Shown here one piece after another: positions 1-36,311 of a stretch of 64,000 bases of DNA (its first letter is position 1; every line of letters starts with the position of its first letter). A program made the position numbers and the translations under genes. Where the stretch lies: contig NW_026889765.1 of NCBI RefSeq assembly GCF_033153115.1, positions 28,148,001 to 28,212,000 of the forward strand, in the 5' to 3' direction. The notes under the pieces were generated by a model. It did no database searches. It worked only from the letters and a program-made list of their open reading frames with translations, and was not told the DNA's origin. This DNA is from Saccostrea echinata (Eukaryota).

Positions 1-30
1 TGTCGTCGTTGTTGTCGTTGTCATTGTTGT

Positions 31-61
<31 letters not shown>

Positions 62-65
62 AAGG

Positions 66-99
<34 letters not shown>

Positions 100-102
100 A
101 GT

Positions 103-150
<48 letters not shown>

Positions 151-1744
151 TTCTTCCAAGGGGAGATAATTAAGAAAGATAATGAAAAATTAATGGCATC
201 ATTAAAAAATCTTCTCAAGAACCACTGTGCTTGAAAATATGAAACTTATGTGGAAGCATCCTCAGGTAGTGTAGATTCAAGTTTGTTCAAATCATGACCC
301 CTGGGGGTCGGGTGGGGCCACAATGGGTGATCAAAGTTTTACATAGGAATAATCTTTAAAAATCTTCTTCTCAAGAACAGCAAAGCCATGATTGGTCGTA
401 TTTACATGGAAGCATCCTCAGGTAGTGTAGATTCAAATTTGTTCAATTCATGACCCCCGGGGGTCGGGTGGGGCCACAATGGGTGATCAAAGTTTTACAT
501 AGGAATATATAGAAAAAATCTTTAAAAAATCTTCTTCTCAAGAACAGCAAAGCCATGATTGGTCATATTTATATGGTAGCGTCCTCAGATAGTGTAGATT
601 CAAGTTTGTTCAAATCATGACCCCCAGGGGTCAGTTGGGGCCACAATGCGCGATCAAAGTTTTACATAGGAATATATAGGAAAAATCTTTAAAAATCTTC
701 TTCTCAAGAACAGCAAAGCCATGATTGGTCATATTTACATGGAAGCATCCTCAGGTAGTGTAGATTCAAGTTTGTTCAAATCATGACCCCCGGGGGTCGG
801 GTGGGGCCACAATGGGCGATCAAAGTTTTACATAGGAATATATAGGAAAAATCTTTAAAAATCTTCTTCTCAAGAACAGCAAAGCCATGATTGGTCATAT
901 TTACATGGAAGCATCCTCAGGTAGTGTAGATTCAAGTTTGTTCAAATCATGACCCCCGGGGGTCGGGTGGGGCCACAATGGGCGATCAAAGTTTTACATA
1001 GGAATATAAAGGAAAAATCTTTAAAAAATCTTCTCAAGAACAGCAAAGCCGTGATTGGTCATATTTATATGGTAGCATCCTCAGATAGTGTAGATTCAAA
1101 TTTGTTCAAATCATGACCCCCGGGGGTCAGTTGGGGCCACAATGGGCGATCAAAGTTTTACATAGGAATATATAGGAAAAATCTTTAAAAATCTTCTTCT
1201 CAAGAACAGCATAGCCATGATTGGTCATATTTACATGGAAGCATCCTCAGGTAGTGTAGATTCAAGTTTGTTCAAATCATGACCCCCGGGGGTCGGGTGG
1301 GGCCACAATGGGTGATCAAAGTTTTACGTAGGAATATATAGGAAAAATCTTTAAAAATCTTCTTCTCAAGAACAGCAAAGCCATGATTGGTCATATTTAC
1401 ATGGAAGCATCCTCAGGTAGTGTAGATTCAAGTTTGTTCAAATCATGACCCCCGGGGGTCGGGTGGGGCCACAATGGGTGATCAAAGTTTTACATAGGAA
1501 TACATAGGTTAAATCTTTAAAAATCTTCTTCTCAAGAACAGCAAAGCCATGATTGGTCATATTTAAATGGAAGCATATGCATCCTCAGATTATTTAGATT
1601 CAAATTTGTTCAATTCATGACCCCCCCCCCCCCCCCCCAATCACTTTTTTATTTAAACTTTTCAACCTTTCAAGACTGAACTGATTTCTGCTTTTTCCTA
1701 GCCATAGTGCTCAGGTGAGCGATATGGCCCCTGGGCCTCTTGTT
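1..1744 (+). mobile_element. Non-autonomous Helentron/HINE-like element carrying ~9 tandem 166-bp satellite units (oyster Cg170-like); 5' end outside window; lies in a GPR180 intron
   Basis: GTC/GTT microsatellite at the start; 166-bp period (caagtttgttcaaatcatga at 601 and 767); terminal CAGGTGAGC...GGCCCCTGGGCCTCTTGTT hairpin end; a complete inverted relative lies at 19400-20003. Confidence 0.8.
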
Positions 1745-1765
1745 TATATCATCAGTTTATTGTTT

Positions 1766-2180
1766 GGACCTATATTTTCAGTCTTTGATGTGTTGTACCA
1801 GTTTGCTATGCTGTACATGCTTCTGACCTATATTTTCAGTCTTTGGTGTTTTGTCTCAGTTTGCTATGCTGTACAAGCTTCAATTCTGACCTATATTTTC
1901 AGTCTTTGATGTGTTGTACCAGTTTGCTATGTTGTACATGCTTCTGACCTATATTTTCAGTCTTTGATGTGTTGTCCCAGTTTGCTATGCTGTACATGCT
2001 TCAATTCTGACCTATATTTTCAGTCTTTGATGTGTTGTCTCAGTTTGCTATGCTGTACATGCTTCTGACCTATATTTTCAGTCTTTGGTGTGTTGGCTCT
2101 GTTTATTATGCTGTACATGCTTCTAACCTATATTTTCAGTCTTTGATGTGTTATCCCAGTTTGCTATGCTGTACATGCTC
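1766..2180 (+). repeat. 7-copy 58/63-bp tandem repeat made of an intron 3' end plus the first ~40 nt of a GPR180 exon
   Basis: cctatattttcAG|TCTTTG(A/G)TGT unit with acceptor G at 1781, 1839, 1902, 1960, 2023, 2081, 2139. Confidence 0.95.
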
Positions 2181-2291
2181 CTGAGTCTCAGTCTGGGCTG
2201 GACACTGGGCACCTCCTACAGATTTGCACACCTACAGATGGTCAGTCGTAAACCAGCAGCTAAAGTTGTAGGTGTACTTGGAATTGTTCAG
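2140..2291 (+). CDS. GPR180: Integral membrane protein GPR180, internal exon (upstream exons outside window)
   Basis: ttttcag|..|gtgagt; translates (V)FDVLSQFAMLYMLLSLSLGWTLG...VLGIVQ, matching the GPR180/TMEM145 'MLYLLLSLxxGWT' motif. Confidence 0.88.
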
Positions 2292-2946: not shown

Positions 2947-3138
2947 GCTGTTTTGTTTGTTTGGGAGCAGATTCAGGACAGTGACCACAGGATGTACCAC
3001 GCACATCGCAGCTTTGCGGGAATAGCCCTAGTCATTTTGCGGATCCTGCTGGCAGCTTTATTTGCATGGAATCTGAATGTAACTGTGTCTTCAGAACGCA
3101 GCGCTCTACGACGAGAATTTTATAAATCATTTACAAAG
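2947..3138 (+). CDS. GPR180: GPR180 internal exon
   Basis: tgtag|..|gtacc, 192 nt, phase 0/0; AVLFVWEQIQDSDHRMYHAHRSFAGIALVILRILL...SERSALRREFYKSFTK resembles GPR180 (LLWEQ..YHSH..AGILLIVLR..ERSTLKREFY). Confidence 0.92.
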
Positions 3139-4074
3139 GTACCTTTTTACTTCTTGATTAAATGTTTTAAAACATAAAACATATGTGTATGTGCATATAT
3201 TTATAACCCTCATTCCCTCCGCTTGAGAAGTGGGTAGGGGGTATATTTAGTGATGGAGCTGTCCGTCCTTAACACTTGGGGGTACCCATCTCTTATCTGC
3301 AACTCCTATATCATGGAATAAAATTTAATAAGACCCTCACAGATTCTTTATTGCATAGTGTCATTGTGCATCTCATATTTTGCATTTGGACATTTGGGGT
3401 TTCTCGGAACAAAACATAAACACTGCCATTATTTCTATAACATTGAGGGTACCCATCTCTTATCCCTAACTTCTCTTATGCCACTGAATAATGAGACTTT
3501 CAAAAAATCATTATTTCATAGTGCCATTGTGCACCTCCTATTTTCTGGTTTTAATCGGACAGAAATTTCGGGTTTTCCATAGCAAAACATGGACATGCCA
3601 TTCTTCCTATAAAATAGGGGTACCCATCTCTTATTCGCAACTCCTCCTATACCAATGAATAAAATTTAATGAGACTTTTTAACAAAATCTTCATTACATA
3701 GTGCCAATGTGCACATCTTTTGCACAAATTTCATTCGATTTGACAGAAATTTGGGGATTCCCATAGCAAAACATGGTCACTTTCTTTCTATAAAATTGGG
3801 GGTGTCCATGTCTTATCTGCAATTCCTCTATACCAATGAAATAAATGAATAAAATTTGATGAGACTTTCACAAAACTTTCTTACTTCTTGTCTCAATCAG
3901 ACAGATATTTTGGGTTTCTCATAGGTAAACCTGGACATTGCCATTCTATAACATGGGGGGTTGGGGGGGGGGGGGGTTGGGGTTACCCACCTCTTATCTG
4001 CTAGTTGAAAAAGTTGTTCTGAATTCTATTTGTAGTATTTTAATTATTTAATGAGCACTGGTTTTATTTTACAG

Positions 4075-4152
4075 AGCTGTATGCTTTGGTTTTTATGCTA
4101 TCCACTTTTAGTTGTCCTGTCCTGGATATTCTATGAATATCTTCGTTATAAG
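4075..4152 (+). CDS. GPR180: GPR180 internal exon
   Basis: ttacag|..|gtatgt, 78 nt, phase 0/0; SCMLWFLCYPLLVVLSWIFYEYLRYK. Confidence 0.9.
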
Positions 4153-5094: not shown

Positions 5095-5250
5095 CTAATC
5101 ACTATGGGCGTGGTCTTATGTCAGTGCTGTGCTGTGGGCATGTTGTACAAATTGTTCTTCTCTAGAAGCCTGTACTGGGAAATATCTGCACTCTCCAGCA
5201 CACTTCCACTGAGAATGGACAGAACTTTAGGACATAAACTGTACTCCTGA
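5095..5250 (+). CDS. GPR180: GPR180 last coding exon
   Basis: ttccag|LITMGVVLCQCCAVGMLYKLFFSRSLYWEISALSSTLPLRMDRTLGHKLYS*; SLYWEhSxLS..TLPL is the GPR180 C-terminal motif; AATAAA near 6538 and 6701. Confidence 0.92.
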   Translation, partial: LITMGVVLCQCCAVGMLYKLFFSRSLYWEISALSSTLPLRMDRTLGHKLYS

Positions 5251-6929
5251 CCAATCTTTTGGTCATTCACTGTAGTCCTTATCAAACTTCAGGACATAGA
5301 TTGTATTTTTGTCAGGTTTTGTGCTTGAATTTTTTTTAATATGTGCCTGTATTTATTGCATTAAAGAGAGACATTTTTGGTCAAGGGCTTTGGGTAGCAT
5401 TTTTCTTTCAAAAAATGAAGCTTAATGCACTTCACATTTCTTTCTTAATGTTTTTGTGCTTTGTTATAAAATTATATACCTGATCAGATACATGTGTATC
5501 AAATGCTTATTTAAAATTTGAGAACAGCAGTCTGCCAAATACAAATTGAAATATATTTTGATACATGTACATGTATACAATGATGTGCACACTTAATTAT
5601 GCATTAAAAAAGAATCATATTACTTTTCTACATGAAATGGGTAAAACTTGAAGTGCATAGTATCTGTAAATTAATGTTGCTTAAATTTCATTAATGGCAT
5701 GCATCTAATTTATATTTAATACTCAAAGTAGATCAGAATATAGTATACTTGCATTCAAATTTGAACAAAATGTGAATGTGAGTATCACAAGATACATTGT
5801 CTGGTTATATATTTATACCCCAGCCGAACTAAATTGAGTATATATATAAAAGAAAGAAAAATTAAATTGGTGGTAGGAAGTGCATGGATTCATTATACAT
5901 TTTCATGCCTTGTTTTTGCACTCACTGCTCATAAGAGTGTCTTTATAATGTTACATGACTTTTATGATACTGTATACAGTACTGTGCACTAGAATACATT
6001 TTTATTTTCACTGTCATCCATAAGTGGCAGATTTGAAAACTCAGCTTATTAAAGGTGAAATGCTGTAATTACGGATTTACAATTACATGTATTAGTTGAA
6101 TGTTGAATTTGCATTAGCAAAATTTAAGTTAGTTGACACTGGTTTTCTGTTTGCATGAATTTTATTTCATTTATTTTGTAAGTTGCCAAAACAAGAAATC
6201 ATGCCTTTTAAAATTCTTTGTTTACATGGTTAGGATAAAGCCTGTGTATGGAAACATGTTGAATGGTAAACCTGACATAAGTGTGTTTTCTTGTAAAATT
6301 TGCATGGCTGTTGAATGGAGTGTTTATGTACAATTTTTTGTACATGTATCTACATGTGCATTATGAACATTTATATGAAGTGAGGTATACTAAAAAATTG
6401 TATGTATGCTACTAAAAGGGCTTGTAGTTTATGAATGCTCTGATCGAGTGCTTTGTACATTAAATCTGAAGGGAGATTAATTCAAATTATTTAAGCACAC
6501 CAGAGGAAAAGCCTGTGTACACAGTATATGTATATTGAATAAAATATTCATTGTATAAAAAGAGTGTAAATGTGTGTGAAGAAGAAATGTAACTGTATGT
6601 AATAACTATGTAAGTGTGTTTGTTGTAACATCTAATTGTGTTCATGATATCATTGATAAACTGTGGTTGTACAAGTCATTATCAAGTTATTTAAAATTAA
6701 AATAAATTTTATGAATCTTTTACGTTGTAATTGCTGAAAAATGTGCTTAAAAGGCAATTGAATGGTTTACATAGTTTGGGTGGTTTTACTTTTTGTATAC
6801 TGTGAAATTAATTTCATCACAGGCACCTGTTTCTGTAATAAATAGTTTGTAATGCTGTGGGTTAAAAATTTATTACAAAACAAGTGCCTGTGGTTTTCAT
6901 GGTGAAAAGACCACAAATTTATATTTATA

Positions 6930-7310
6930 TTTAACTGTGACATCCTACAATGTGGCCTAAATTGATTGTGCTTCTACTTAGGTAGCCTATATTGACTGAT
7001 GTCCTACACTATTGCCTATATTGACTGTTACATCATACATTAAAGCCTAATTTGACTATATCTACTACAGTCTAAATTGGCTGCAACATCCTAAACTTAT
7101 GGCTAAATTGACAAAAGTCCTACATATTGCCTAAATTGCCTGTGACAACCAAAACTAAATTGTTTGTGACATTGTACACTACTGCCTAAATTGACTGTGA
7201 CATCCTATGCTATTGCCCAAATTGAATGTGGCATCTATACTATAGCCTATATTTACTGTGACATCCTACATTACAACCTATATTGACTGTGTTATTCTAT
7301 ATGGTAGCTA
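6930..7310. repeat. Degenerate ~31-bp minisatellite
   Basis: repeated ttgactgtgacatcctacactattgcctata-like units. Confidence 0.8.
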
Positions 7311-35929: not shown

Positions 35930-36311
35930 TACGGAAGCCGGTAGGTGCCAGGTAGAAAAATATTTTATCTGGCGGCCGCCAGATACGTTTCTGGCGGCCG
36001 CCAAATAATTATCTGGCGGCCGCCAGATAAATAACTGGCGGCCGCCAGAAACCTATCTGGCGGCCGCCAGAAACTTATCTGGCGGCCGCCATATAATTTT
36101 CTGGCGGCCGCCAGATAAAAAGATCTGGCGGCCGCCAGATAACTTGTCTGGCGGCCGCCAGAAAGTTATTTGGCGGCCGCCAGATAAGTTTCTGGCGGCC
36201 GCCAGTTATTTATGTGGCGGCCGCCAGATAATTATTTGGCGGCCGCCAGAAAGTTATCTGGCGGCCGCCAGATAAAATATTTTTTCTACCTGGCACCAAC
36301 CGGCTTCCGTA
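35930..36311. mobile_element. IS3EU-like MITE that is almost entirely a 14-unit GGCGGCCGCC palindrome array
   Basis: TACGGAAGCCGG...CCGGCTTCCGTA TIRs; 6-bp TSD GAAAAC; 22-bp period. Confidence 0.92.

What the first reader, a model, noticed from the sequence alone, without database searches (positions are those of the whole stretch)
1766..2180. Seven tandem copies of a GPR180 splice acceptor, only the last productive
Seen: the unit is branch-like motif + pyrimidine tract + CAG + the first ~40 coding nt, spaced 58,63,58,63,58,58 (a 121-bp higher-order repeat). All seven AGs sit in the same cctatattttcAG|TCTTTG context. The upstream acceptors either shift the frame or, for the two in-frame ones (1839, 1902), hit TGA within about 22 codons. 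Only the last copy has CTAAC instead of CTGAC upstream, although just ~13 nt from the AG. Inference: the spliceosome must bypass six decoy 3' splice sites, so copy number could tune productive versus NMD-targeted GPR180 mRNA, and the single G>A change may select the right site.
Basis: partly seen in the sequence, partly recalled or inferred. Interest (0 to 1): 0.7.

Follow-up and report, generated by a model that had tools for sequence, protein, structure and literature searches.

The report
Splice-acceptor "mirage" repeat in oyster GPR180
The end of an intron plus the first 45 bases of the next exon of an oyster membrane-protein gene (GPR180) are repeated seven times, the assembled transcripts of this species splice only at the last copy, and the array is likely a tolerated example of a repeat type already described in lancelets and humans, with a hint that two later point changes help the cell pick the right site.

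Summary
The array is real: seven 58/63-bp copies of the intron 5/exon 6 border of GPR180, with seven copies on a second contig that is probably the other haplotype. All six upstream acceptors would give premature stops. In 6 of 7 runs laid, one spliced contig starts at the last acceptor and none covers the array. This is a 'mirage' minisatellite, known from amphioxus and paralleled by human CBS 844ins68 and F7; the scan has noted many on other DNA, and paralogous oyster genes carry five more. A copy-number rheostat has no support here. Two extras: (1) the unit just before the used acceptor carries two G>A changes in both haplotypes, the only 2 of 55 transitions that improve a branch-like motif (post hoc); (2) one run from a related organism holds the repeat junction at a third to half of exon depth, which may mean an upstream acceptor is used there. 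Most likely: exon definition picks the last acceptor, perhaps sharpened by those changes. New member of a known kind; modest interest.

The parts
1..2139 (+). 3' part of GPR180 intron 5 (phase 1, 2,635 nt; its donor lies 496 nt before the window)
   Evidence: exact spliced alignment of P0023; donor position
1745..1781 (+). original intron tail and first acceptor (AG ends 1781), with TTTAT at -23 and -36; the only copy with non-repeat intron upstream
1767..2184 (+). minisatellite: 7 copies of 58/63 bp, each 13-15 nt intron tail + AG + first 43-45 exon bases; units 2 and 4 carry a 5-nt insertion
1838..1839 (+). pseudo-acceptor 2 (in frame, TGA at codon 17)
1901..1902 (+). pseudo-acceptor 3 (in frame, TGA at codon 22)
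1959..1960 (+). pseudo-acceptor 4 (frameshift)
2022..2023 (+). pseudo-acceptor 5 (frameshift)
2080..2081 (+). pseudo-acceptor 6 (frameshift)
2102..2106 (+). TTTAY motif made by a G>A at 2105 (A at -35), private to unit 6 and shared by both contigs; predicted branch site
   Evidence: role inferred
2123..2127 (+). CTAAC made by a G>A at 2125 (candidate branch A 2126, -14), private to unit 6 and shared by both contigs
   Evidence: role inferred
2138..2139 (+). acceptor in use
   Evidence: contigs of X1, X3, X5 join the upstream exon to 2140; X2, X4, X8 pieces start at 2140
2140..2291 (+). GPR180 exon 6 (152 nt), with the highest-scoring donor of the gene under a generic matrix
2947..3138 (+). GPR180 exon 7
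4075..4152 (+). GPR180 exon 8
5095..5250 (+). GPR180 exon 9, coding part to the stop

Best explanation
This is a tandem duplication of the GPR180 intron 5/exon 6 border, amplified to seven copies, that is likely tolerated because the spliceosome likely defines exon 6 between its strong donor and the nearest acceptor, so the six upstream copies are removed with the intron. Shown: the array, its origin across the splice junction, the premature stops behind every upstream acceptor, and use of the last acceptor. Inferred: a first 58-bp duplication at a 2-base GA overlap, later slippage or unequal exchange (a 5-nt insertion spread to units 2 and 4), choice of the site by exon definition (152-nt exon against 210-510 nt), loss of any mis-spliced RNA by nonsense-mediated decay, and a secondary sharpening by two G>A changes that give the last acceptor better branch-like motifs. 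Any use of upstream acceptors is then a leak, not a control.
For: Last acceptor used: X1, X3, X5 contigs carry the end of exon 5 directly before 2140 (exon 5 end); X1, X2, X4, X8 have no depth at 1782-2054 and one spliced contig each: 6 of 7 runs laid. The upstream units have decayed without regard to coding (amino-acid changes in 5 of 6 units on the window's contig). The other seven internal or first exons are 50-207 nt and the exon 6 donor scores highest (8.9), while all seven acceptors score the same over -12..+2, so the choice must come from outside the core site. No good donor lies inside the array (best 4.5, next 1.8) and the array folds worse than 100 of 100 shuffles. An orthologous intron in another animal has a single acceptor at the same phase (L011). 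Same class and same silent outcome in amphioxus (PMC3087553 passages; PMC3902484 passage) and distal use in CBS 844ins68 (PMC2630376 passage). Five further junction arrays in two of three paralogous loci of this genome.
Against: Run X6 (organism C) holds a 73-nt record that runs exon start, intron tail, exon start, at depth 6.4 against 11-18 for the exon, so the copies may not be silent everywhere. All RNA evidence is assembled contigs, which drop rare variants, and the runs are only guessed to be RNA. Exon definition and decay were not tested in oysters here. The two G>A changes are unlikely by chance under a post hoc test (about 0.001 nominal), which suggests that the array was not neutral.
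Confidence: 0.7

Rival explanations
1. Branch-point compensation is the main selector: the duplication was leaky, and the G>A changes at 2105 and 2125 were selected to draw U2 to the last unit.
For: Unit 6 has two private changes shared by both contigs, and they are the only 2 of 55 transitions (5 of 165 substitutions) that create a yTnAy at -18..-40 or a CTAAC. The X6 junction record has 2 other letters against units 3-4, which are accounted for without a change at +44, so it likely reads CTGAC (inferred from mismatch counts, letters not shown). A yTrAy at -16 occurs at exon 4 of the same gene. A precedent is in the title of a CBS VNTR paper seen only in a reference list.
Against: Post hoc test on two changes; terminal units of mirages diverge anyway (PMC3087553). 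CUGAC is a well-used branch motif and 90% of human branch points lie 19-37 nt upstream (PMC4315302). 3 of 8 GPR180 acceptors have no yTrAy within 60 nt. X8, which shares 5 of the 7 listed exon variants of X6, has one unbroken spliced contig.
Confidence: 0.17
2. Rheostat: copy number sets the share of mRNA sent to decay and so tunes GPR180 level.
For: All six upstream acceptors put a stop 377-672 nt before the last junction; the junction is present in X6 at a third to half of exon depth; the junction is shared with an organism whose exon differs at 5 of 87 and 8 of 86 letters, so it is old.
Against: 7 copies on 2 of 2 contigs; no array sequence in 6 of 7 runs; units decay freely; copy number did not change site choice in F7; similar arrays sit at many unrelated junctions.
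Confidence: 0.08
3. Assembly artefact: one acceptor expanded by read errors.
For: None beyond the general risk for tandem repeats.
Against: Units differ by up to 9 of 45 letters; a second contig has the same spacing with 11 differences in 621 columns; the junction occurs in an independent run.
Confidence: 0.01

Closest known systems
Amphioxus 'mirage' minisatellites (globin BflGb6 and BflGb9, Adh3, troponin C, PGBD5); PMC3087553, passages of abstract, section 16 and supplement legends seen; PMC3902484, one passage
   Same: Tandem copies of the 3' end of an intron plus the 5' part of the next exon (as BflGb6); units keep the AG; splicing stays normal; terminal units diverge most; unit size within the 10-160 bp range
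   Different: Oyster, not lancelet; copy number equal on the two contigs (BflGb6: 6 and 3); two branch-like changes before the used acceptor; junction seen in one run of a related organism
[quoted passage not shown]
   Same: Duplicated intron end plus exon start; the downstream site is strongly favoured and normal mRNA results
   Different: Two copies, not seven; its mechanism through G-runs and hnRNP H is recalled, not read, and the oyster unit has no G-runs
Human F7 intron 7 37-bp VNTR, with 6-16, CBS intron 13, lamin B2 and PDGF arrays; PMC1557585, abstract, passages and section 10
   Same: Minisatellite repeating a splice site into the intron; the exon-nearest site wins; some arrays leak to the next one or two sites
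   Different: Donor side rather than acceptor side; length polymorphism is documented there, not here

Membership tests
Mirage minisatellite | Tandem repeat whose unit spans an intron-exon boundary of the host gene | tested here: met
Mirage minisatellite | Units keep the splice dinucleotide | tested here: met
   7 of 7 keep CAG on both contigs
Mirage minisatellite | Regular splicing is not disturbed | tested here: met
   6 of 7 runs show only the last acceptor at contig level; minor use cannot be seen in contigs, and X6 holds the junction
Mirage minisatellite | Tandem-repeat turnover with boundary units excluded from homogenisation | tested here: met
   units 1, 3, 4, 5 differ from the consensus at 0-2 letters, unit 6 at 8 and 4, unit 2 at 5 and 4
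Mirage minisatellite | Length instability between alleles | tested here: inconclusive
   7 copies on 2 of 2 contigs of one assembly; no population data
Regulated unproductive splicing (splicing coupled to nonsense-mediated decay) | Alternative site gives a premature stop well upstream of the last junction | tested here: met
   6 of 6 upstream acceptors, 377-672 nt before the last junction
Regulated unproductive splicing (splicing coupled to nonsense-mediated decay) | The unproductive isoform is made at a measurable level | tested here: inconclusive
   absent from 6 of 7 runs; junction record in X6, source unresolved
Regulated unproductive splicing (splicing coupled to nonsense-mediated decay) | Its share changes with condition and rises under a decay block | not testable with these tools
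   needs raw reads or experiments
GPR180/TMEM145 family (host gene) | PF10192 transmembrane domain and orthology to GPR180 | tested here: met

The most novel reading that the evidence does not exclude
A mirage caught before and after repair: in a related oyster lineage the duplicated acceptor leaks into stop-bearing mRNA at a sizeable share, while in this lineage two branch-point mutations in the unit before the true acceptor were selected to silence the decoys. The locus would then be a natural paired experiment on how branch point and exon definition override first-AG scanning.
Probability: 0.17. Interest if true: 0.5.

Novelty: new member of a known kind. Interest (0 to 1): 0.24.

Why it matters
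As it stands it is one more junction-spanning minisatellite, useful mainly as a small, clean test system: seven acceptors identical over -13..+4, one used. If the leak in the related organism and the compensating changes hold up, it would show selection acting on a mirage and give a direct test of what selects among identical 3' splice sites in a mollusc. I found no paper on this locus: searches for GPR180 with oyster (1 listing, on ciliates), Saccostrea with tandem repeat and splicing (11 papers, 10 listed, none on this), and mirage with minisatellite and splice (3 papers, none on molluscs by title).

Tried and rejected
Branch-motif profile for this genome: 143 exons predicted ab initio in 1.22 Mb showed no yTnAy, yTrAy or CTrAy peak against 2,281 decoys; but only 5 of 60 top predictions sent to Pfam (60 of 97) had a clear non-transposon domain, 2 were transposon pieces and 1 doubtful, so the test is inconclusive. 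A first self-training attempt found only 5 seeds. Genome-wide rate of mirages: 1 of 161 predicted exons in a random 1 Mb had a duplicated junction, against 80 of 3,085 non-exon AG and 21 of 801 non-exon GT sites, and 2 of 15 in paralog loci; splice motifs were not enriched in 180 random arrays (0 and 2 observed, 0.5 and 2.3 expected) at a threshold that missed the GPR180 array itself. These give no reliable rate. RNA structure hiding the decoys: rejected, z +1.99. Mini-exons or recursive splicing in the array: no good donor, and AG is followed by TC. C58 as a separate gene copy: similarity first seemed to end at 11,900 but resumes past a 12-kb insertion at about 100%, so it is read as the other haplotype. 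No earlier notes on look-alike stretches. Paper searches returned nothing; two returned nothing relevant by listing. Supplementary alignments of PMC3087553 were not opened and may show comparable changes in terminal units.

Full report
Observation. Tandem Repeats Finder gives an array at 1767-2184, 7.0 copies of 58 bp (86% matches), also at period 121. The AG of each copy ends at 1781, 1839, 1902, 1960, 2023, 2081 and 2139, spacing 58,63,58,63,58,58. Read in the phase of the true exon, all six upstream acceptors meet TGA, the two in-frame ones at codon 17 and 22.

Host gene. Exons 6 and 7 match PF10192. The database holds 448-aa proteins named GPR180-like of Saccostrea echinata on contigs with the lengths of C16 and C58. 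An exact spliced alignment of P0023 gives nine exons of 50-207 coding nt; intron 5 is 2,635 nt, phase 1, starting 496 nt before the window. The protein around this exon is nearly invariant in bivalves. L011, from another animal, has the same intron position with one acceptor.

Reality of the array. The region occurs twice in the assembly. The copy on C58 also has seven units with the same spacing and differs at 11 of 621 columns. C58 stays collinear with the window beyond a 12-kb insertion, so it is most likely the other haplotype. The junction pattern is found only at these two places. Units 1, 3, 4 and 5 are within 2 letters of the consensus; units 2 and 6 differ at 4-8; units 2 and 4 share a 5-nt insertion; several changes alter amino acids, so the copies are free of coding constraint.

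Which acceptor is used. Nine runs were listed, all assembled contigs only guessed to be RNA; seven were laid. In X1, X2, X4 and X8 one contig each starts at 2140 and joins exons 6-7-8, with no depth at 1782-2054. In X1, X3 and X5 the loose end before 2140 is the end of exon 5. Contigs drop rare forms, so minor upstream use is not excluded.

The exception. X6 (organism C; exon differs at 5 of 87 and 8 of 86 letters) has six records on the stretch. Counted from the exon start they cover +1..+40 (depth 16), +11..+101 (13), +11..+45 (6.4), +16..+101 (4.9), and +16 through the intron tail to +30 of the next copy (73 nt, 6.4). This is the pattern of a loop in a graph of 31-letter words: the last record is the edge that returns through the duplicated acceptor. 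It has only 29-30 letters on the short side of the join, one short of the tool's bridging rule, and is one record in one run. It shows that the duplication is shared with that lineage. Its depth is a third to half of the exon's. It may come from use of an upstream acceptor, or from unspliced RNA or DNA summed over several like copies; the record is unbroken where the upstream intron would enter, which mildly favours the first. Its two mismatches are explained by known differences, so it likely has CTGAC, not CTAAC; that is inferred, as the letters were not printed. X8 shares five of the exon variants and shows no loop.

Mechanism. The seven sites score alike over -12..+2, so selection comes from context. 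First-AG scanning from the original branch region would choose 1781, which is not what the contigs show. Exon definition (established knowledge, recalled) predicts the acceptor nearest the donor: 152 nt against 210-510 nt, with the best donor of the gene. No usable donor lies in the array and it has no unusual structure. Upstream use would give 272-309-aa products with the stop 377-672 nt before the last junction, likely decay substrates.

The G>A question. Unit 6, which lies directly before the used acceptor, has two private changes on both contigs: 2125 (CTAAC, candidate branch A at -14) and 2105 (TTTAY, A at -35); on the window's contig it has also lost its internal AG. Only 2 of 55 possible transitions improve a branch-like motif by my definition, and these are the two. 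The nominal chance is about 0.001, but the definition was chosen after seeing the data and edge units diverge anyway. Three of eight GPR180 acceptors lack any yTrAy within 60 nt. My attempt to learn the oyster branch profile was inconclusive.

Known kinds. Earlier notes of this scan pointed to amphioxus 'mirages' (32 findings in at least 16 genomes hold the search words) and to two donor-side cases in this genome. [quoted passage not shown] Human CBS 844ins68 duplicates an intron/exon junction and the distal site is strongly favoured (PMC2630376 passage). In the F7 donor array only the exon-nearest site is used, and 1-12 copies did not change that (PMC1557585 abstract, passages, section 10); the same paper lists arrays that leak to one or two further sites. 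In this genome two of three paralogous loci examined carry five more junction arrays.

Verdict. A real, old, tolerated mirage; new member of a known kind. The rheostat reading lacks support. The possible leak in a relative and the two branch-like changes are the only features above ordinary, and both rest on thin evidence. Interest 0.24.

Noticed in passing
L022:4137-4349, 6418-6532, 6602-6951 (G000:C9, gene of P0051): Three more junction-spanning arrays in one paralogous gene: two acceptor-type (49/63 bp, last pair 98% alike; 60 bp x1.9) and one donor-type (31 bp x11.3), the last two flanking the same exon.
   Followed up: partly
L024:4913-5233 and 1060-1159, minus strand (G000:C43, TMEM145-like): Two donor-type arrays (85 bp x3.7; 27-30 bp x3); a third array (3625-3864, 34 bp x7) starts right behind a donor. 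The family seems richer in such arrays than predicted exons elsewhere (2 of 15 against 1 of 161); unexplained, baseline weak.
   Followed up: partly
L024:3987-3865 and 1818-1696, minus strand: Two versions of one TMEM145 exon; one fits P0036 (83%), the other P0037 (80%) over the same residues: likely mutually exclusive exons kept across oysters.
   Followed up: no
L039:9035-9229, minus strand (G000:C1): CUB-domain exon whose donor recurs 4 times in the following 300 nt.
   Followed up: no
window 251-1625: 166-bp satellite, 7.7 copies, in the same intron; shorter on C58, where intron 5 is 1,952 nt against 2,635.
   Followed up: partly
window about 11,895; G000:C58:6321325-6333343: 12-kb insertion on C58 relative to the window; the two contigs are about 96% alike over the GPR180 5' half but 99-100% downstream.
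   Followed up: no
window 12,020-12,375: About 350-bp element matching its own reverse complement, with 96-98% copies on many contigs: likely a young miniature inverted-repeat transposon.
   Followed up: no
window 22,682-23,715 and 35,965-36,275: 22-bp arrays built of palindromic units.
   Followed up: no
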